Origin: Octopus sinensis
Lineage: Eukaryota
Direction of reading: 5' to 3'
NCBI RefSeq assembly: GCF_006345805.1
Contig: NW_021832228.1
Span: forward strand, 138,114 to 202,113
Length of the DNA: 64,000 nucleotides
Position 1 is the first letter of the stretch, and each line of letters opens with the position of its first letter. A model generated the notes under the pieces. That model was given only the letters and a program-made list of their open reading frames with translations. It was not told where the DNA came from and did not search any database. Positions 4,461 to 50,940 of the stretch are shown here, one piece after another. The position numbers and the translations under genes are program-made.

Positions 4461-5700
4461 AGTAGTGAGAGTAGTGTTGGATTCCTCAGTTCTGGGATGT
4501 TCAAAATTGGGGAATTGGTTCAAATCGAGTACAATTTAGTGTTTCATTGGTAGACCGCAGGTTGTGGGGGTTATAACTCGACTGGAACGTCAAAACTTTG
4601 TGATTCTTAATTAGTTCGAAAAGGTGGATTTTCAGAGGTGATTTTAGATTGTTAAGAAAAAGAACAATTCGATAACAGTGAGGAAAGTGAGTGCCAATGC
4701 AGTGACTTTTTACTCGGATAACCAGGCAATAACAGTGGCCAGTTCGGTCAAAGTCATCAAAGGGCCTTTGGAAGTAAGTATATTACGTAATCAGTAGAAT
4801 GAGACGGGAACAGTTACAACAGTTACATGTATATACAAGAATTATGTGTTTGTCAAGTCATCCAGTCTGCAACATAATTCTGGGTTATTTGTGGTGGTTA
4901 GACGGAATCTGCGTCGATTGGATGGTAGTGAGTGTTAGTCGGGGGTTGGACAGTGAGGCACGGAGGAATGCAGTCGAGGGTAAACTGGGTGGTTTTGGGT
5001 CTCCATTCCCGATGGCTTCGCCAATGCACTACGCCACCGCATCTACCAAAGTAGGGTCTTAGAGGAATGTGAGGGATCGTCGTCTTATCGGGAATGCCGT
5101 CATGATCATTAAAGGACCACTGAAAGGGAATATTGGTATCATTAAGGACGCGAGTGAAAAGACTGCACAAGTTGAGCTTCACTGTAGTTGTCGTACCATC
5201 AATGTGGATCGTGGCAATTTAATGGCCATTCGTGCTGCTAATGATAACTCCTATGATTTGTCCACACAAGAAGGCAAAACGTTGTCGATTACTCCCACTG
5301 TGAGCAATATTCCTGTCCCTGTGGGGGGAAGGACTCCTTTATATCCGCAGACCCCGTCCTACCCCGAGATTCCGGCATATCCGCAGACACCATCTTACCC
5401 ACAAACACCGATGATAGAGACAGAGGGAGGAGCAACCCCTCATCATTTGATGGAGGAGGGCATGTCTAATTCGTATTGGCTGTGTATGTTAATTTGTAGA
5501 GTTCAGTCGAGTCCTGCTACATTTGGGAGAATTAATTGGCAGTCCCCATTGGATACTCCATGTTTGTGTTTTGTAATATTGTTGTAGCTCATCTACTATT
5601 TGCTCAAGACTTTGACACCTTATTCTACTGTGTCGGTCTCGTGGTGGCTGCTTCCACCAATAAGTCGTTCATTGATTGCGTGATTCGCCGCCATTAAATT
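4461..5700 (+). pseudogene. SUPT5H: 3' half of transcription elongation factor Spt5 (KOW domains and CTR repeats)
   Basis: SESSVGFLSSGMFKIGELVQIEPQVVGVITRLER, VKVIKGPL, ASPMH, LIGNAVMIIKGPLKGNIGIIKDASEKTAQVELHCSCRTINVDR and GGRTPLYPQTPSYP repeats. There is an in-frame TAG near 4612, short introns, and no NGN domain. Confidence 0.92.
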
Positions 5701-12609: not shown

Positions 12610-13200
12610 TGTCTTAGTGAGGACAATTAAAGGAAGGCTTTGATCGAGTTGAAGGCGATTGGACTGCTTGATCTCCAAAAGAAAGTGGGGGAAGAAGTGT
12701 TGTGTGTGATGAAGAAGTCCTGTCGAATTGAGGGACCTGCCTTTGGTCGTCGAGTCAAGAGAGAAAGTCTCCGTGATTCCAGAATAACAGAAAGAATAGA
12801 AAAACATGAAAAAATGGAATCCGAGAGACTAAGAAGACAACAATTTTAGTTAAAATGTAAAAATTCTGATTTTCAGGAATTTTTGGGGAGAATTCAGCAA
12901 CATCAAAAGCAATTCCGTAAAAATATGCGAATTCGCGCAACCAAACTGGGCAAAGTGAGCAAGGCCGTGTTAAACCACCACCTGACGAATGAACGAGAGC
13001 AAAAGAAAGAAGAGGATCGAATTCGGCGGGAAAGAATGGGTCGATTGATGGGAAATAAATAATTTAACACGTTTTTAAAAAGAGGATGAAGTGGAATACC
13101 GAAAGTTGATAGATCAAAAGAAGGACACCCGATTGAAATACTTGTTGGAACAAACGGACGAATATATAGGGAATATGGCCAAGTTATTGCAGTCCCACAT
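12610..13200 (+). pseudogene. SMARCA2/4: Brahma/BRG1 (SWI/SNF ATPase) HSA-domain fragment
   Basis: ALIELKAIGLL, KRESLRDSRITERIEK, HHLTNEREQKKEEDRIRRERMGRLM and [29 protein letters not shown]. One 28-nt GT-AG intron and one damaged intron; no ATPase domain nearby. Confidence 0.93.
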
Positions 13201-13741
13201 GTGTGATTGGGGGAGGAAGGACAGGACTGTTATTCCATTGCTTAGAAAATAAAAATTAAATTAGTCTTGTATTAGTAACAACTTCTTGTGTGAAAATGAC
13301 CAAAATGGAAGCCGAATGAATAAATTCGTCAAGAAATTAAGTGAACGAGTGATAGTTTTGTTGCAAGACTTTCCTCCACTTCTGGCCAAAGATTGGGGTT
13401 ACCAGGATGATAAATTCAGGCGAACAAGTCAATCGGATTTTGGTGATTTTGGCAAAGAAAAAAAATTGCGTTTTTCTTTAAAAAATAAATCAAAATATCA
13501 TAATCATTATTTTTTAAAACTATTGTTGTGTTAATAATTTTAGCAAAATTATTTATTAATCCGGGAAATCATTAAATTAAAAACATTTATTTTAAATTCT
13601 TTTTTCTAAATAGTTTCTCCAATTCTGATTCTGCGGAACCGGATGTCTACTTCAGCCACACTCGAAAATAAAAATTAGATGGAGCAGAGATACATGTCTT
13701 CGTTTGGGTCGTCTTCCTCTGGATTAATTAGTTTCCTAATA

Positions 13742-14400
13742 CAGTCGGACCTCGGTTTGAGCCACTTGGTGGCTCATAAACCGAGGTTGTATCATAAACC
13801 GAGGTTCGCTAATAATCCTAAATAACAGTACTTTAAGTAAAAAATAGTTCACAAGAAACAGATAGAAACAGTTCATAAGTTATACTTTTTTGAAATAATG
13901 CGTAATCTTTTCTCCAAAACGATTTTTATCCCGTAAATTAATCATTATTTTTTCCTTAGGGCGTAGAAATCATTTAATAATTTTGGAGAAAGTTTGCATA
14001 TAATTTCCTTCATATTATTAATAAGAGTCAGTGGATCTATAATGTCTGTTGATTCAGGCCCATTATAAAAATTTATTTCGCTTTCAAGCAATTCTTCGAC
14101 AAAGACTTTGTTCACCATTTCTGTCGATTTTTTATGAGAACTAGCATTATCCAACAACATTAATATTTTTCGGTTTTCAGAAAGCATTCTGGTATTTAAT
14201 TTAAAAACCCAGCTTTTAAAAATTTCAGTTGTCATCCACGTATTTTTAGAAGAAGAGTACATGACGTTAAAAACATCAGGATTGAATTGTTTTAAGCACC
14301 AAAGGTTTCGATATTTGCCGATAATTAAAGGCTCCAGTTTCTCTCCAAGATAACTGCAGCATAGAAGCAGGCTAACCCTTTCCTTTCGCCGAATTCGATC
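13742..14400 (-). mobile_element. pogo/Tigger-like (DDE_1) element, 3' part with terminus
   Basis: ERVSLLLCCSYLGEKLEPLIIGK, SSKNTWMTTEIFKSW and ILMLLDNASSH; terminus CAGTCGGACCTCG preceded by TA. Confidence 0.85.
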
Positions 14401-15686
14401 CTCTTCTTTCTTTTGCTCTCGTTCATTCGTCAGAAACGAGAATATTTAATATAAATACAACATTGATAGCAATATTGAATTAAATACGAATTAAAAAAAT
14501 CCACAACACAAAAAAATAATATTACGTGCCACGCGAATCCAACATTACTGCAGTTTTCTGAAATGGCCGTCCACAACAACAAAATATGGAAAGCACTTTT
14601 CTGATTCTTTTCTTTTTCGTACATTTGGGAGAACAAAGAATGGGAGGTCAATCAAGACACAAACTGAGGTCGATGCGGAGCGAGGATTCCAGATAGTTAG
14701 CACAGGGAAACTTGCCAGCAATGCTAATAGCGTTGATGATAGCCTTCTGGGGAGAATGTTTGAGGGCGGATAAAAAGCAGTCCTCCAGTTGCCACTCTAT
14801 CAAGTCCAGAGTTTCACTTTGGCTTCCTTCTGGTTGTTAAGGGGCCCGTTTTAAAGTCTTACATTTCAATTCAATATATCTTGTTTATAAACGTAATTTA
14901 TCTTTCTACACAAAAAAATCATTCACATTTCAACAAATTCAGTCATCTCGGTGTCCGGATCGTTGTTAGAAAAACTCTGCAGATCCAGACATTTCCTGAC
15001 ATTACTCACCAAAAAGAATTGGACTGCATCTTTTCAAAATTTACACAAACAGAAAAAATGAAAAAAAAATAAATTTCACAAAATTAGACATAAACTTTAA
15101 TTTTTAATCAAAAATACGCACTTTTGGACTAAAGCAAGAAAATTCAATAATTTATCAAAAATACTAAAAAAATATAAATATAGTGAAGATATTTTACAAG
15201 TACAAAAAATAAATAAACGACAAGATTAAAAAAATTAAGTATTGATGAAAAGAACAAAAAGACAAATTATTATATTTATTATACATGATTTTGCACAACT
15301 AAATTAATCAACTCAAATATATATTTTCTATTCATATCTGATAATGATTACAACACAACAAAGATCAACAAATCGTTGTGACCTCGGTCATATCAGGACT
15401 TCTTCCTTTCTCATACAAATCGGGACATTTGTAAATAAAAAATTCCATTTTAGATCATTTCAGTTTCAGTAATAATCACATCCAGCTTTAATGACACATT
15501 TATTCTACATGGAAGAGAATATATTCAGTTCTGTGGAGCAACGTCGCTGATTTTCAGTATCCTGCACTTTCTATTTTATTTTCTCAAAATAAATACAAAA
15601 TTCGGACCTTCTCGTCAAAGATTTATCGAAATGATAATATATTTTGGATTTACAATTATATATTTTATAACCATAGTCATTTAGGA

Positions 15687-19260: not shown

Positions 19261-19660
19261 TATGATCTCACCTCTTTAAATAATAGCAATTAAAAAAAGT
19301 AAAAAAGCCTGCCGGACAGACACAAAAATTAGCATATTTTAAGGTAATTGGACCAATTTCGGCTATTTTGATAGATAGATAAGGGTTTATTTTGCAAAGG
19401 GATATCAGACATAAAAGAAATTAAGGGCCAGTAATGGCCTTACACGCAGGGTCGTCCGGGGCTATTTTCTTCTCTTCTCTAGAAACTTTTAAACTTGGGT
19501 TTCAACAAGCTCGCCAATCATAGGAAAGACTTCGCGCCAGCTCGGTATTTTCTCTCTTAGATTTACGCCGAATGCCACCTTGAGCGCTAATCTCGTATTA
19601 ATGCCTGGTCGTATTAATGGACTTGTTTCATTAGTTAAATCTAAAAATAATAAGATAATA

Positions 19661-20383
19661 TGTCGCATGCACAACGCGCACTACGCCCCGAGCGCACATT
19701 ATCGATTAGTCATATTGTAATTTTTATAAATTTTTTCGAAATTATTGAATATAATGACACAAATGGCACTTTAAAAATATTATAATATATTTATTAATTT
19801 GTTAATATCTTTTTTTCATCAAATTTTAATTAAATATTACGCACGCTATATACTATGGATTGTTCACGTTTGGTTTTCCAAAACAAAAGAAGTTATATAA
19901 GAAATGTGACCGGTTGAATACGAGCCCAGGTTGATTAGGGTCAGGGTTAGGGGTTTGGGTTAGGGTCAGGGGTTAGCGTCAGTTTTAGGGTCAGGGATTA
20001 GGGTTAGGGTCTGTTTTCTTTAGTGGCTTTTTATGATGAATATGTTTATAAATAACGTTGAAATCATTTATAGTTAGAGTTAAAGTTAAGGTTAGAGTTA
20101 AAGTTGTTACAAACTTGCCAAAAAATTTGATGTAAATTATAATTTGCTAATGTTGCAATTTATAATATCAAAAATAAAAATAATTCACATTATAATTTGC
20201 TAATGTTGTAAATAATTTTACTATTTTAAAGCAAACATGGTTCAAATATAAAACATCATTTTTTCAAAAATTTAAAGTTCAATCATTAGTTCGGAACGTT
20301 TGCCTTTATTTTAATTGGCCTTTTGAATTATTAGCGAATCAATAATGTGCGCTCAGGGCGTAGGGCGCGTTGTGCATGTGACA
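19661..20383. mobile_element. Non-autonomous Ginger-type MITE containing a telomere-like array
   Basis: 47-bp TIR TGTC(G/A)CATGCACAACGCGC... with 4 mismatches; 5-bp TSD TAATA at 19656-19660 and 20384-20388. Removing it restores the hAT reading frame. Confidence 0.92.
19935..20009 (+). repeat. Degenerate interstitial (TTAGGG)n-like array
   Basis: TTAGGG/TCAGGG/TTTGGG units; a more degenerate GTTAGA/GTTAAA/GTTAAG run follows at about 20073-20105. Confidence 0.9.
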
Positions 20384-21374
20384 TAATATCATCACATTGT
20401 TTTTTGCATCGAGAAGTATTGGTTGTAAAAACATTACCTATGAATTTAAAATCTGTCTTGAATGATATTATCCGAATGATTAACAATATAAAAAGTCGAA
20501 CCAAAAAATCTCACATTTTTACTACTATTTATGATGAAATGGGGTCAAACTTTACAAATTTGTTACTTCATACCGAAATTCGATGGCTATCAAGGGGTAG
20601 AGCATTAACGAGTGTTTTTTAATTAAAGGACGAAATGTATGAGTTTTTTAAATTGGAAGGGCATTCTGAATTTGTTGAAAAATTTCAGAATCCAATTTGG
20701 TCTTTAAAACTTGCGTATTTATCTGACATTTTACAAATATTAAACGAGGTTAATGCAAGTATGCAAGGACGTTCTGAGACTATATTATTGTCGACGGACA
20801 AATTAAATTCTTTGAAAATGAAAATCAGTTTTTGGAGAAAAAGGGTTTTAGATGGCGATTATAATATGTTTCATAGTACATATAGTTAATTTAATAATTT
20901 TGGAAGACAAAATGGATACTTATTTTCCAGACTTAGAAATTAAAAATTCGATTGGGTTATTAGTTTTTTAATATATTTATATACGAAATTTTTTTATTGT
21001 CCCTGAATCAAAAAACTTGTCTATTAAAGAAAATGAAGAACTTATTGCGCTATTTAATCATCGATCCTTATGATTAAAAATGACGGAGTTAGACATTGGA
21101 GAATTCTGGATATATATTCGAAACATATATCCCAGTTTATCAAAACAAGCACTGACCATAATTTTACAGTTTTCAACGACCTATTTATGCGAAGCAGATT
21201 TTTCTAAGCTGCATAATATGAAACATAACAAACGCGAAAGTTTGAGAAACATTGATGCTGAAATGCGGGTGGCTCTGTCAACCATTCGACCTGATATTGA
21301 TGATATATGCAACAACAATAATAATTAAGATTTCATTTTCATAGTAATTTTGTGGAAATTAGAGCACCTATTTA

Positions 21375-28880: not shown

Positions 28881-29562
28881 TGTCACCGTCTTGAAGGGAC
28901 CCCCAGGGTTGAACGGAAAATTAAGAATTAAAAAGGCAAAAGTAAATGGCAGGCATAAATTATATGTAAAAAATAGTATTTTAATTATTTTTATAATAAT
29001 TCTAATGTTTAATTTATTATTTTAGAATGGCTTGTCTAAAATTTTATTTTTACATATCAAATTATGACATGCAATGCGACATTGTGACCTTACTCATGAG
29101 GGTTAGGGGTAGGGTAGGGTTAGGGTAGGGTTAGGGGCAGGATTAGGGGCAGGATTAGGGGCAGGATTAGGGCTAGGTTTAGGGTAGGGTTAGGGTCAGG
29201 ATTAGGGTTAGGTTTAGGGTAGGGTTAGGATTAGGGTTAGGCAACATCTATGAAGTGGTGGAAATGGGTATAAGTGGGTTTACGATTGGTTACTTTACTT
29301 TGTTTTTAACTATATATAATTGGCTTTGTAAATTGTAATGACATTCATTTGAAATATTTATTATATTATTTATAATTAGTCTATTTATTTTTCTGAAATT
29401 AAGGCAGTACTAATGTAATCATAATTTTACTAATATAGAAATATTTTGAGGTCATGCAAGTATCTCTGGAATCCTCTTTTGGGTATTTCAATTATTAAGT
29501 GTATGAAATATCTAATTAGGGTAGGGTCCCTTCAAACTTGGGGTCGTTCGATGCCTGTGACA
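28881..29562. mobile_element. Second Ginger-type MITE containing a telomere-like array
   Basis: Termini TGTCAC..GTGACA with an inverted TTGAAGGGACCC motif; 5-bp TSD ATAAA at 28876-28880 and 29563-29567. Confidence 0.85.
29100..29241 (+). repeat. Degenerate interstitial (TTAGGG)n-like array, about 140 bp
   Basis: TTAGGG, TAGGG and TTAGGGGCAGGA units. Confidence 0.95.
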
Positions 29563-38226: not shown

Positions 38227-38958
38227 TAGTATTGGTTAAAACAATAACCAACATGGTCATATTCCTAGAGAGAATGGCTCACAGCCACTAAACTGAGAAA
38301 ATGCCTTATACATTCATTAAAATAGTGCCAGATGTGAATTTTATTTCATCTTCTTAAAACATTTTACGATTCCTGATACGTCAACAGTTATGCAGCTGTT
38401 CATAAAATATAAATATTGAAAACTGAATTAGAGTGTATGACAAAGTTATACGAATTTGCAAATCTCCAAATAAATATGCGAATATTAAGCACAAAGCTGA
38501 AAAATCAAATCCCTCCACAATTTTAGTCGGATTAGTTAAAATGTTATCAATGGATTGTGATTCAAATCGCTCACTTGCCATTAAGATTTATATGACCATC
38601 TCTCAAATCACGAAAACTCAAACTTATCGCATGTTAGTTAAATATTTTAAATATTTCTGCATTAATTGGAGATTATTAGTATCAGACTCATATACTCCTT
38701 CGGTAAACATGCCAATAGAAGTAGGCAATACTCAATTATCCACAATAATTCTACACAAACAGTATCACTGAGTGAGTTTATTTTAATTTAGAAGGTGATC
38801 ATTCTTCGAATTATTAAAATGTTGGTGGTAACAATTATCTCAAGTTTTTTGCAATTAACAAAAAGCATTGTCGTATAAAGCTTTGGTGACGTGATCGTAT
38901 TTTAGTATTGGTTAAAACGATAACCAACATGGTTATATTCCTGGAGAAAATGGCTCAC
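38227..38958 (+). repeat. Two dispersed 56-bp direct repeats (38227-38282 and 38903-38958), probably paralogous exons
   Basis: Both read VLVKTITNMVIFLE(R/K)MAH; 3 of the 4 differences are synonymous. Confidence 0.8.
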
Positions 38959-45910: not shown

Positions 45911-46818
45911 TTGTTTCTAAGAATGAATGTGTCTGGAAAAGTTTGTGTAGGCAAAAAATCCTACAGTTCCGAGTTCCCCCACGTTTTCTGCACAGTGGGG
46001 TACCACCCGACGAACTGCGAAGGACTTACCAGACAGGATGTCCTCGATCTAAAAGACCTGGCACTCCTCAATCGAGATAAAATTATATCCATTGGGGAAA
46101 TTGGACTCGGTAAGTGACCCTCTCCATTTCTAGATTATATGAGGACTAATTTCTGTTCTCAAGAAAGTCAAAAAGGTTGTTTTTTAAATTAGTCTAGTTT
46201 AGAGGGCTAGAAATGCAGTTGGATGTGTTTTCGGGGCTTGATTTGTCACTGTTCTTGCACTGTAGAGACAGTCATGACGATTTGCTGGAGATTTTGTGTC
46301 GGAATAAGTCAATGTTGGCCTGTGGTGGTGTGGTAGGTCTTTGTGATGAGTTTATCAGGTCCATTCGTTTGATGGCACAGCAGAACAGGCTCAGAAGATT
46401 CTGGAATTGGGTCTTTATATTGGAATAAATGGATGGTAGGCCGTCAACTAATAATTTCCAGTTCTTTAAAGACTAGTGATAATTTAAAGGTGTTGGAGGG
46501 ACTTCCTGTGGATAGAATCCTGGTGGAGACGGGTTATATTGTGTCGGGTGATGATAGATGCTTCCTGGTGTGGGATAAAGAGGACGTGGGAGGCTGATCA
46601 GTTCGTGCAGACTCGGTGGTCGACAGTGAGGAATGACAGGTGGACAGAAACATGCATGATTCGTGGGCGGAATGAGCCTGCGTGTATTGCGTGAGTTGTT
46701 TCCTTATTGGTTTAGACAAGTTATTGAGGTTATCTCTGCTGTTAAATGCATTCCTGTACATCAATTGGCCAGTGTTGTGTACCACAATTCTTTGTCTCTC
46801 TTTTTCTTTCGACAATAA
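45911..46818 (+). pseudogene. TATDN1: TatD DNase main 3' part with 24-27 nt introns
   Basis: CTVGYHPT, SIGEIGLDY, LFLHCR, GGVVHSFDGT, YIGINGCSLKT, RILVETD, GRNEPACI and VYHNSLSLFF; a 1-bp frameshift in an A run near 46172. Confidence 0.93.
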
Positions 46819-46923
46819 TTGTCTGTTTTATTTATTTACATCATTCTGGAGTGTCTTATTAATTTTTTCCAATAGTTGATTGACTCTTTATTCTCTAATA
46901 AAAAGTCGTTCTTAACACAATTA

Positions 46924-47950
46924 TTAATTTATCAAAACAATTTTTTTAAACAAAAAGTTAGTGAGATAATTTTTTTGCATCTTGGCGCAAAGTTTTTGAA
47001 ATCTTGATGTCATTGAAGAGAGTGCTACTCTTAGCTCATTAGTCACTACTAAACGAGTTCGATATCTAGATTTCATTGCAGCCTGTGCAGAAAATCCAGT
47101 TTTGCATAAATATGAGGAAGCAAATGGCAACAAAACTTTTATTGCTTTATTTGACAAAATTTCATATTCCATACTTACATTCAACCAAAAATAAATTAGC
47201 GGTTCTCTCTCGAATTTTTGTTTCAATAATGTATCACATGACAATTTTATCAATTTTTCTTTTTCAAAAGTTGTCAATTTCTTCATCAATAAATGGACTC
47301 TGTCTCCATTCGAACTTTTTACAGTCGAGATCTTAAAAATAATGAGTAAAATGCTTCAACAAACAATCCAAATGTTCAGCAAATATGTCTTTGTGCGCTT
47401 CAATGTTCACTATGGCGTAGAAGGTAGTTAAAAGTGAAAACATACCAATTTTTCATAAATGCTTTTATTTTGTCCTTTTGAGCTAATAAATGTAGTTGTT
47501 GTCCCTGCATTGATCTATTCAATATACTCAATTTCCCAAAAATGTCAACCAAATAGGCAAATTTGACAATAAAGTCATCATCCCTGAACAATTTTGCATC
47601 TTCAATATCATTTTCATAAAGAAAATCTGCAACTTGATCTTTGAGTTCAAACACACTTCGAATCACTTTTGTAAGAAATAGCCAGCCCATGTCACAATAG
47701 TATAAAAGCAAAGTATATGTAGAATTCATATCTTCACTCAGCTTTGCAAAAGCTTAGCTTTTAAAGGACTGTGTTTAATGTAGTTTATAACTTTTGTAAT
47801 TTGCGCAAAAATATCGTTCAGTTCTGGAGTCATATTCTTTCACGATTTTGATATAGATAATCACGATTTTTATATAGATCTAATTTTCTAAAAAAATGTT
47901 TCTGATATGCTTTTGGCGTCTCCCTTGACACGAATCAGCGCCTCCCTAGG
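46924..47950 (-). mobile_element. Decayed hAT (Charlie-like) remnant
   Basis: AYLVDIFGKLSILNRSMQG, KAIKVLLPFASSYLCKTGFS and ELRVALS. Confidence 0.85.
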
Positions 47951-47951
47951 G

Positions 47952-48084
47952 ATTCTTTGTCTCTCTTTTTCTCTCGATAATAATTTTCTCTTCTATTTAT
48001 TCACATAATTTTGGAGTGTCGTATTAATGTTTTCCAATAATTGATTAACTCTTTTTATTCTCTATTAAAAAGTCGTCTTTAACA
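47952..48084 (+). repeat. Diverged copy of 46787-46917 (TatD last codons and 3' UTR)
   Basis: ATTCTTTGTCTCTCTTTTTCT...TGGAGTGTC...AAAAAGTCGT is collinear in both copies, with scattered substitutions. Confidence 0.9.
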
Positions 48085-49505: not shown

Positions 49506-50940
49506 GGCTATGCGACAACTCGCCTATAGTCGAGTTGTCGCCTAACTCGCCTAAATTTATTTGGCGACAACTCGCCTACTTAAAATAAATAAAAAATTTT
49601 ATTTTTACCAGATTAAATCTAATTAATTAAAATTTCAACAATTTTTTTACTTTAATCCTTATTATGACTGACTTTAAACTGCTTAAAAGCCAAAGAGTGG
49701 CAAACTTTACTACTACAACCGGAACTATTGTATAATACAGGTAGAAAAAAAGACGGTCTTACCTATTGGAGGTGCAGAAATCGAGAATGCAGGACGAGGT
49801 GCACGGTGGATGCTCAAAACAAGTTGAGCACAAAAAATGCTCATAATCATTGCCCCTTTGAGGATCATGAGATAAAAAGCATGAAACTAGTTTCTGACCT
49901 GAAAGATGCCGCAAAAGCGTCAGAAGACAGAATTATGAATGTGGTGTCAAGAAGCCTCATTGGAGCCAATGTTGACGTCATTAAAATCTTGCCAAAGGAA
50001 CGTTCATTGACTCGTCTCGTTCAACGGGAAAGAGAAACACTGATACCAAATTTTGTTCCGACCATTTCTGAAATTCCTGAAAGTTTGTGGTGGTACAGAA
50101 AATGCCTACTGTGCATTATTTGAAGAAATAAAGACACTTGTTGTTACTTCACCAGCAAGTATTTTAATTGATTTTGAAAAGGGGTTAATTAACTCCACAA
50201 AATCAGTTTTTTCGTCGTCTAATGTATTTGGCTGCAATTTCCATTTCGGCCAAATCATATGGCGGAAAATACAATGTCTTGGTCTTGTGGGAGCCTACAA
50301 AGACGTTTCATCGTGGGAACGAAAATTATTGAGAAAATGCTACCATTTAGCTTTCATCCCTGTGGAAAATGTTTTAATGGAATTTGAAAAATTTTCTCTT
50401 GATGCGACAAAAAAAGAAAACAACCAACAGATAATGAATTTTTTGGTTTATTTTAAAAACCAATTTAATGCAGACCCATCTTATGACGTCAGTTTTTGGA
50501 GTTGTTTTTATCGGGTATTAAAGTCGATGCCCAGGACGACCAATTCATTGGAAGGTTGGCATAAGCTGTTGAACAGTTCTTTTAACAGAGCGCACCCAAA
50601 TTTGGCAGCTTTTGTCAATGTTTTGGCCAGGGAAGAACAAAGACTTTTTGTGAAAATGACACAAATTAAGTCAGGAAGGTATCTTGAAGTGTCTGCGACA
50701 GACTGCAAAAAGGAACTTGAACTGAGAATAGCATGTGAAAATTTTCATGAATTTGAAGAGATTGCTATTTTAAGCTAATTGATAGTCTGATTTGCTTTAA
50801 AAGTTCAGAATAAACAGTAATTGTTTTAAAATTTTATTTTATTTACCTTTAAAATATTTTTCTTCGTAGACGAGTTGTCGCCAAAAAAATTTAGGCGAGT
50901 TAGCGACAACTCGTCTATAGGCAAGTTGTCGCTCAACGAC
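49506..50940 (+). mobile_element. Mutator-like element (FLYWCH and MULE domain), internally deleted
   Basis: About 70-bp TIRs made of GCGACAACTCGCCTA units; TYWRC..C..HNH, ILIDFEKG, GCNFH and RTTNSLEGWH. The first catalytic Asp region is missing and no TSD was found. Confidence 0.9.

What the first reader, a model, noticed from the sequence alone, without database searches (positions are those of the whole stretch)
19661..20383. Ginger-type MITE carrying an internal telomere-like array (copy 1)
Seen: a 723-bp element with 47-bp TIRs, TSD TAATA and a central TTAGGG-like tract (19935-20009). Excising it restores the hAT frame (..KNNKI|ISSHCFLH), so the tract moved as cargo. Inference: a DNA transposon that disperses telomere-like or G-quadruplex-forming seeds, which might bind telomere proteins or matter for chromosome breakage and telomere addition. 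Caveat: GGTTAG-rich tracts occur in some other non-autonomous DNA transposons.
Basis: partly seen in the sequence, partly recalled or inferred. Interest (0 to 1): 0.72.

Follow-up and report, generated by a model that had tools for sequence, protein, structure and literature searches.

The report
Chimeric mini-transposon with hitchhiking telomere repeats
This 723-base jumping element is a patchwork of two related Ginger-type transposons, likely from a tiny parasite (a dicyemid) assembled along with its host; its telomere-like stretch is absent from the gene-carrying parents, likely arose as repair filler where a transposase gene was deleted, and shows no sign of a role in chromosome breakage.

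Summary
In detail: 723 bp, TGT..ACA ends, 47-bp TIRs (43/47), TSD TAATA, and a 76-bp TTAGGG/TCAGGG tract, inserted in a dead hAT. But it is a chimera. The shell comes from a 2,071-bp integrase-coding Ginger2/TDD-type element (family A) that has no tract. The middle, from 19905, is the remnant of a second TGT..ACA mini-element (family B) that jumped in and was trimmed. Of 23 family-A loci, 10 are this chimera and 13 carry no B piece. Coding parents of families A, B, D and E lack tracts; in B, D and E mini-elements the tract lies where the integrase gene was deleted, so it is likely repair filler later expanded by slippage. All hits for the A, B and C ends lie on small, tiny-intron contigs, likely a dicyemid co-assembled with its host. 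No tract-bearing copy examined ends a contig in telomere repeats; 0 of 42 parasite-type contig ends are telomeric. The parasite's telomere repeat is unknown (POT1 found, TERT not). Dispersal is real but small; function is unsupported. The scan noted similar TTAGGG-bearing mini-transposons before, here and in other genomes.

The parts
19656..19660 (+). Left target-site duplication TAATA
   Evidence: empty site skips 728 bp in 3 of 4 runs
19661..19707 (+). Left TIR of family A (47 bp, TGTCG start)
   Evidence: 35 family-A ends in G000, control 0
19661..19904 (+). Left arm of the 2,071-bp coding Ginger2-type parent (family A): 5' region and first codons of its predicted integrase frame
   Evidence: 99% identical to L061 positions 1-245; frame
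19905..19934 (+). Left end of a nested family-B element (its own TGT start), followed by an internal deletion
   Evidence: junction falls exactly on B's first base; copy C9497 keeps the longer, undeleted B end
19935..20010 (+). Degenerate TTAGGG/TCAGGG tract, inherited from family-B mini-elements; G-rich strand is the transposase sense strand
20011..20328 (+). Family-B body. 20011-20080 is the 3' untranslated region of a tract-free coding B-type element (95% to L351); 20068-20105 is a second, A-rich decayed hexamer run
20328..20383 (+). Last 56 bp of the family-A parent, including the right TIR (20337-20383)
   Evidence: 98% to L061 positions 2016-2071
20384..20388 (+). Right target-site duplication TAATA
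19595..21325 (+). Decayed hAT transposase gene that received the insertion
   Evidence: frame joined across the site; Dimer_Tnp_hAT E=1.2e-4, 22.3 bits against cut-off 21.4
28881..29562 (+). Second, separate TGT..ACA mini-element (family D, TSD ATAAA) whose tract (29099-29241) replaces the parent's integrase gene

Best explanation
It is a gene-less Ginger2/TDD-type transposon built from the ends of one family and the trimmed remnant of a second family that likely jumped into it, and its telomere-like tract is likely a passenger that began as repair filler where the second family's integrase gene was deleted. Steps: (1) a coding B-type element lost its integrase gene, and TTAGGG-type DNA now lies at the gap (position shown; repair origin inferred); (2) slippage expanded and diversified the tract into TTAGGG/TCAGGG higher-order units (inferred from unit patterns and length spread); (3) one B mini-element inserted about 245 bp inside a family-A element (inferred from the junction at B's first base); (4) a deletion fused B's subterminal region to A's last 56-65 bp (shown by alignment); (5) the chimera was mobilised in trans by family-A transposase to at least 10 loci, with 5-bp AT-rich TSDs (copies and TSDs shown, enzyme inferred). 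The tract is not needed for movement and has no shown function. The DNA likely belongs to a dicyemid co-assembled with its host.
For: Composite structure: element 1-245 = L061 1-245 (99%), 245-277 = B left end, 277-668 = B body (89%), 668-723 = L061 end. Coding A parent: rve above cut-off, H2C2 below cut-off, no tract. Six long B copies (1,988-4,144 bp, same left end, a related right end) have no tract. L340/L351 has an integrase followed directly by the post-tract sequence, with no tract. Family D: the tract replaces the gene from about codon 9 to near its end. Family E: 5 of 5 mini-elements have the tract at the 3' deletion junction; the 15 other E loci fetched have none, bar 3 units in one. 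TSDs perfect in 6 of 7 composites with both ends. A tract-free 156-bp A copy has a perfect TSD. 0 of 42 contig ends telomeric. Parasite origin: all 35 A, 38 B and 51 C end hits on small contigs; microsatellite fraction 0.0009 against 0.060 on chromosomes; two SPT5 types, 97-100% on small contigs and 61% on C24; predicted 20-25-nt introns, against a dicyemid median of 27 bp (PMC6543705, passages).
Against: Tracts recur in at least three Ginger lineages with no shared flanks (B, D, E), always G-rich on the sense strand, and the B cassette was captured by two other shells (A, C). Tract-bearing minis are numerous (16 of 30 B-end loci examined; most C loci). That could mean a bias in formation or a benefit, not pure drift. 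The 5' parent junction of B was not recovered. The intron search was limited to 20-34 nt, so the size range is partly built in. The dicyemid assignment rests on intron size and assembly pattern, not on a tree.
Confidence: 0.78

Rival explanations
1. Telomerase itself wrote the seeds: each time a Ginger element lost its gene during gap repair, telomerase extended the broken 3' end with TTAGGG before rejoining, independently in lineages B, D and E. This is a specific version of step 1 of the best explanation.
For: Tracts sit at deletion junctions. TTAGGG is the shared core while variant units differ by family. The shortest tracts are near-pure (about 3.5 units in L181; 26 bp in L103/L114). D's 5' junction has 2 nt in register, as telomerase-made insertions often do (PMC2246262, passages). 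A POT1 gene lies on parasite-type contig C8597, E=4e-11.
Against: Only one 5' junction is informative. D2 has 10 nt and E about 260 nt of other filler before the tract. Strand agreement in 3 independent lineages has a two-sided chance of 0.25. TERT domains were found only on host chromosome C28. No parasite telomere was found.
Confidence: 0.25
2. The tracts were copied by template switching from pre-existing TTAGGG-like repeats (other mini-elements or subtelomeric satellite), with no new telomerase action. This is the alternative version of step 1.
For: The B cassette has demonstrably moved into A and C shells. E carries about 260 bp of foreign DNA next to its tract. A TTATGG-variant repeat block unrelated to these TIRs lies on the window's own contig.
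Against: B, D and E tracts share no flanking sequence and have different variant units; no donor was identified.
Confidence: 0.45
3. The tract is functional cargo: it binds telomere proteins or folds into G4, and either aids transposition or seeds chromosome breakage and telomere addition in the parasite's somatic genome.
For: Canonical G4 motifs; repeated association with non-autonomous Ginger families; dicyemids are reported to rearrange and eliminate somatic chromatin (PMC6543705, passages citing Noto 2003).
Against: Coding parents and 13 of 23 A loci move without it. It decays within the chimera, and only one TAGGGTT site remains. 0 of 42 contig ends are telomeric. 0 tracts were found in 260 kb sampled from 14 parasite-type contigs. 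TTAGGG loose ends in run X1 are 8-12 letters and start inside the tract, as unrelated telomere-repeat contigs would.
Confidence: 0.07

Closest known systems
Ginger2/TDD DNA transposons and their non-autonomous derivatives (TDD-4, TDD-5, Ginger2-1N1_NV; PMC2836005, passages; PMC10045372, passages; silkworm Ginger2_NA, PMC3845634, passages)
   Same: TGTNR termini, TIR near the 45-52 bp end of the range, AT-rich target, 5-bp TSD as in TDD-4/5, parent with H2C2 + DDE integrase and no GPY/F or YPYY motif.
   Different: This copy is a nested chimera of two families and carries a TTAGGG-like tract; 'telomer' does not occur in the main text of these three papers. Metazoan Ginger2 in PMC2836005 had 4-bp TSDs.
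Short interstitial telomeric sequences inserted at double-strand breaks (PMC2246262, passages)
   Same: Telomere-type repeats at a junction with deletion of flanking DNA, sometimes with extra filler; decay with age.
   Different: Here the junction lies inside a transposon and was then amplified by transposition; in-register microhomology could be tested at one junction only; telomerase is not shown for this organism.
MITEs with hitchhiking microsatellites and MITE-seeded satellites (insect GTCY MITEs, Xstir, BIV160, as tabulated in PMC6947457; table and reference passages only)
   Same: A short tandem repeat inside a small non-autonomous element varies in length between copies and can expand (4.7-kb array in L231).
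   Different: The unit here is telomere-like, and its position maps to the deleted transposase gene.
Telomere-bearing elements of ciliates (TBE1; recalled, no call)
   Same: DNA transposon associated with telomere-type repeats in an organism group with somatic genome rearrangement.
   Different: TBE repeats are at the element ends and the elements are excised in programmed fashion (recalled); here the tract is internal, degenerate, absent from coding copies, and no programmed excision is shown.

Membership tests
Ginger2/TDD | Termini TGTNR ... ACA | tested here: met
   TGTCG at left, TGTCA on the right end's reverse strand; feature from PMC2836005
Ginger2/TDD | TIRs of about 45-300 bp | tested here: met
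   47 bp, 43/47; table 2 of PMC2836005 lists 45-297 bp
Ginger2/TDD | 4- or 5-bp TSD in AT-rich target | tested here: met
   5-bp TSD, perfect in 6 of 7 composites with both ends; 4 or 5 bp per PMC10045372
Ginger2/TDD | Parent encodes H2C2 zinc finger + DDE integrase | tested here: met
   A parent: rve 42 bits (cut-off 32.6), Integrase_H2C2 19 bits (below cut-off 25.5); D parent has both above cut-off. A copies seen carry frame breaks and one predicted 22-nt intron
Ginger2/TDD | No GPY/F or YPYY motif; no reverse transcriptase or LTRs | tested here: met
   No exact GPY/GPF/YPYY in three forward frames of A, B, D parents; one ESPY look-alike in A. L061 (2,071 bp) is bounded by TIRs and its only long ORFs are integrase and an overlapping frame
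Ginger2/TDD | Integrase groups with the Ginger2 clade in a tree | not tested
   No reference Ginger sequences were in hand; the homolog search gave one unnamed hit
Ginger1 | 4-bp CCGG/CCGT TSD and GPY/F motif | tested here: not met
   TSDs are 5-bp AT-rich; motif absent
MITE (strict sense) | Small, non-coding, TIRs and TSD | tested here: met
MITE (strict sense) | High copy number and size homogeneity (PMC3845634) | tested here: not met
   10 composite loci by exact-match end search, 389-4,562 bp or more with later insertions; counts are lower bounds
Telomerase-inserted interstitial telomeric sequence | Repeat at a junction relative to an empty ancestral sequence, often with deletion | tested here: met
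   B (3' side), D (both sides), E (3' side) against coding parents
Telomerase-inserted interstitial telomeric sequence | Excess of in-register nucleotides at the priming junction | tested here: inconclusive
   One informative junction (D, 2 nt); D2 and E have intervening filler; B's 5' parent missing
Telomerase-inserted interstitial telomeric sequence | Repeat equals the organism's own telomere repeat and telomerase is present | tested here: inconclusive
   Long pure TTAGGG arrays examined are host-type; TERT only on C28; POT1 on parasite-type contig C8597
Programmed breakage / telomere-addition site | Somatic molecules end at the site in new telomere repeats | tested here: inconclusive
   0 of 42 contig ends; only assembled contigs, no raw reads, were available

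The most novel reading that the evidence does not exclude
In this dicyemid, telomerase repeatedly patches the gaps that turn Ginger2 transposons into mini-elements, and the telomere-seeded minis then act as dispersed breakage or telomere-addition sites in the parasite's programmed somatic DNA elimination.
Probability: 0.05. Interest if true: 0.85.

Novelty: new member of a known kind. Interest (0 to 1): 0.3.

Why it matters
As it stands it is a well-resolved example of how mini-transposons are assembled (gene deletion, filler, nested capture), and a warning that internal telomere-like blocks in this assembly come from a co-assembled parasite's transposons, one grown to 4.7 kb. The recurring position of the tract at the deleted transposase gene, in three lineages with surviving parents, makes a narrow question testable: whether telomerase supplies filler during transposon gap repair outside mammals and yeast. 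A link to dicyemid DNA elimination would matter far more but has no support here.

Tried and rejected
Single MITE family with a native tract: rejected. Host-chromosome element: rejected, 0 of 124 end hits of families A, B and C on C1-C29. Tract resident in coding parents: not seen in A, B, D or E parents. Parasite telomere: (TTAGGG)15 gave 35 matches on C2, C17, C29, C9474 and C11827; the two small contigs and C12761 resemble host DNA. (TTAGGG)10 gave 174 matches, of which only the first 100 were listed, all on C1-C17; 74 were not seen. Parasite TERT: not found with two Pfam families, weak because of tiny introns and divergence. Public runs: no RNA holder listed; contigs only, so no start, end or breakage signal can be read. 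Protein searches for naming the organism gave nothing or one unnamed hit. The script stopped at L242, so L242-L244 were not scanned for D ends. A coding parent for family C was not found among 33 loci, many cut at 1.5 kb. Paper searches listed no paper that, by title or abstract start, describes TTAGGG tracts in Ginger elements or dicyemid telomeres; supplements and Repbase entries were not seen and may hold such families.

Full report
Observation. The tract spans 19935-20010, with 6 TTAGGG and 3 TCAGGG units and never more than two perfect TTAGGG in a row. Nine such units in 76 bp compare with at most two in 200 shuffles of the whole window. It has two four-G-run motifs. Taking the element out restores the hAT frame, and contigs of 3 of 4 public runs, two from one sample, hold the empty site as a 728-base skip. 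The hAT is otherwise broken.

It is a chimera. A search of the own genome returned full-length copies, but also copies matching only positions 1-245 and others matching only about 275-668. An exact search for the terminal 19-mer found 35 ends, control 0, which resolve into 23 loci. Thirteen carry no B piece. Ten of these follow a 2,071-bp element (L061 type) with an integrase; two are right ends of that type; one is a 156-bp derivative with a perfect TSD. The integrase scores rve above cut-off and H2C2 below it, and has one predicted 22-nt intron and frame breaks. None of the thirteen has a tract of its own; one received a separate tract-bearing element. The 723-bp form equals parent positions 1-245 (99%), then the first bases of a different TGT..ACA family (B), then the tract and B's body (89%), then the parent's last 56 bp (98%). 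The left junction falls exactly on B's first base, as a nested insertion would give. Copy C9497 keeps a longer B left end, and C9002 keeps a longer B right junction, so intermediates survive. Ten loci are this chimera. Seven have full tracts of 69-91 bp, two are cut to about 34 and 15 bp, and one is cut by its contig start. TSDs are perfect in 6 of 7 with both ends; near-full-length alignments are about 90-98% identical, indels included.

Where the tract came from. Family B has 38 exact left ends. Of 30 examined, 16 were stand-alone tract-bearing minis, 6 were the chimera and 8 rows had no tract. Stand-alone tracts measure 26-379 bp (19 of 20 measured, median 236). Six long B copies of 1,988-4,144 bp have no tract; four show an integrase ORF and the other two align to them as DNA. 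A closer parent, L340/L351, has an integrase whose stop is followed directly by the sequence that follows the tract in the window (95% over 20011-20080), again without a tract; its 5' end is lost. The window's second element (28881-29562, family D) shows the same pattern on both sides. Its coding parents continue into the integrase at the point where the tract begins, and resume near the gene's end where the tract stops. In family E, 5 of 5 minis have the tract at the 3' deletion junction, while the 15 other loci fetched have none beyond three units in one. So in three lineages without shared flanks the tract stands where the transposase gene was deleted, G-rich on the sense strand, with TTAGGG as the core and family-specific variant units. 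I infer repair filler followed by slippage. Whether telomerase wrote it or it was copied from other repeats is open. Telomerase-made insertions often show deletions and in-register bases (PMC2246262, passages), but only D's junction is informative (2 nt). D2 and E have other filler in front, and strand agreement in three lineages has a chance of 0.25. Cassette capture between shells is shown directly: B's body also sits in family C (51 ends).

Whose DNA. G000 has chromosome-scale contigs (14 sampled, 17-213 Mb) and thousands of small ones. All 124 end hits of A, B and C lie on small contigs. Their microsatellite fraction is 0.0009 (108 loci) against 0.060 (11 chromosome stretches). SPT5 occurs as 97-100% copies on small contigs and a 61% copy on C24. 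Dicyemid introns have a median of 27 bp, and dicyemid somatic cells are reported to rearrange and eliminate chromatin (PMC6543705, passages). A co-assembled dicyemid is therefore likely; I built no tree. Earlier unreviewed notes of this scan read the same contigs the same way; they are not independent support.

Tests of the functional idea. The long pure TTAGGG arrays that I could examine are host-type; 74 of 174 ten-unit matches were not listed. TERT domains were found only on host C28, though a POT1 gene lies on parasite-type contig C8597. None of 42 ends of 21 parasite-type contigs is telomeric, a weak test because most ends are assembly breaks. A blind 260-kb sample from 14 such contigs held no tract; the window's 202-kb contig held the two elements and one inverted block. 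In run X1, TTAGGG loose ends appear at 19935 and 19971, but they are 8-12 letters long and start inside the tract, as unrelated repeat contigs laid at 85% would; no raw reads were on hand. Only one TAGGGTT site remains in the window's tract (its relevance to TRF-type binding is recalled). In favour of some bias or benefit: tract-bearing minis outnumber coding copies among the B and C loci examined, and one tract grew to 4.7 kb.

Comparison and verdict. Termini, TIR length, 5-bp AT-rich TSD and the parent's domains fit Ginger2/TDD and not Ginger1 (PMC2836005 and PMC10045372, passages); clade placement was not tested. It fails the strict high-copy MITE criterion (PMC3845634, passages). Microsatellites hitchhiking in MITEs, and MITE-seeded satellites, are known (PMC6947457, table and references). 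Six searches listed no paper on TTAGGG tracts in Ginger elements or on dicyemid telomeres; supplements and Repbase were not seen. The scan has noted a Merlin element with such filler in this genome and TTAGGG-bearing minis in other genomes, so the pattern is not special to Ginger. Verdict: a real, low-copy chimeric non-autonomous Ginger2-type element with a passenger telomere-like tract; a new member of a known kind; interest 0.3.

Noticed in passing
L231 (G000:C8852, about 140.4-145.1 kb): A D2-type left end is followed by a 4.7-kb array of one 24-bp telomere-like unit (390 TTAGGG, 195 TTATGG, 194 TTAGGT): a telomere-like satellite grown inside a mini-transposon, next to a second D2 copy with a short tract.
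   Followed up: partly
L062 (G000:C9339:89546-92156): A family-A copy received, independently, a 1,163-bp tract-bearing TGT-type element (family E) with TSD TATTA, in reverse orientation.
   Followed up: yes
G000:C8699 about 10-19.6 kb (L211-L212), outside the window: A 99.8% inverted duplication of at least 3.3 kb carries degenerate telomere-like blocks pointing outward around a central tandem repeat; may be a real fold-back or an assembly artefact.
   Followed up: partly
Family C (51 left ends; e.g. L288, L291, L292): A third TIR shell holds the B 3' body; its short tract plus spacer has become a roughly 60-100-bp minisatellite in several copies.
   Followed up: partly
window 4550-5590; L142-L145: An SPT5 gene piece with predicted tiny introns exists in five near-identical copies on small contigs; the window's copy is fused downstream of an ankyrin-like gene piece.
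   Followed up: partly
L360 (G000:C8597:476000-476446): POT1 telomere-binding gene on a parasite-type contig, while no parasite TERT was detected.
   Followed up: partly
family-B tracts, e.g. L091: TCAGGG alternation creates many GGGTCA words (18 in 308 bp); from memory these resemble nuclear-receptor half-sites found in variant human telomere repeats. Untested.
   Followed up: no
L065, L066, L078, L351: Non-LTR retrotransposons sit in the AT-rich 3' body of several composite or B-type copies.
   Followed up: no
window 12982-14433, 38227-38958, 46787-48084, 49512-50937: Other TIR or direct-repeat bounded elements in the window; not examined.
   Followed up: no
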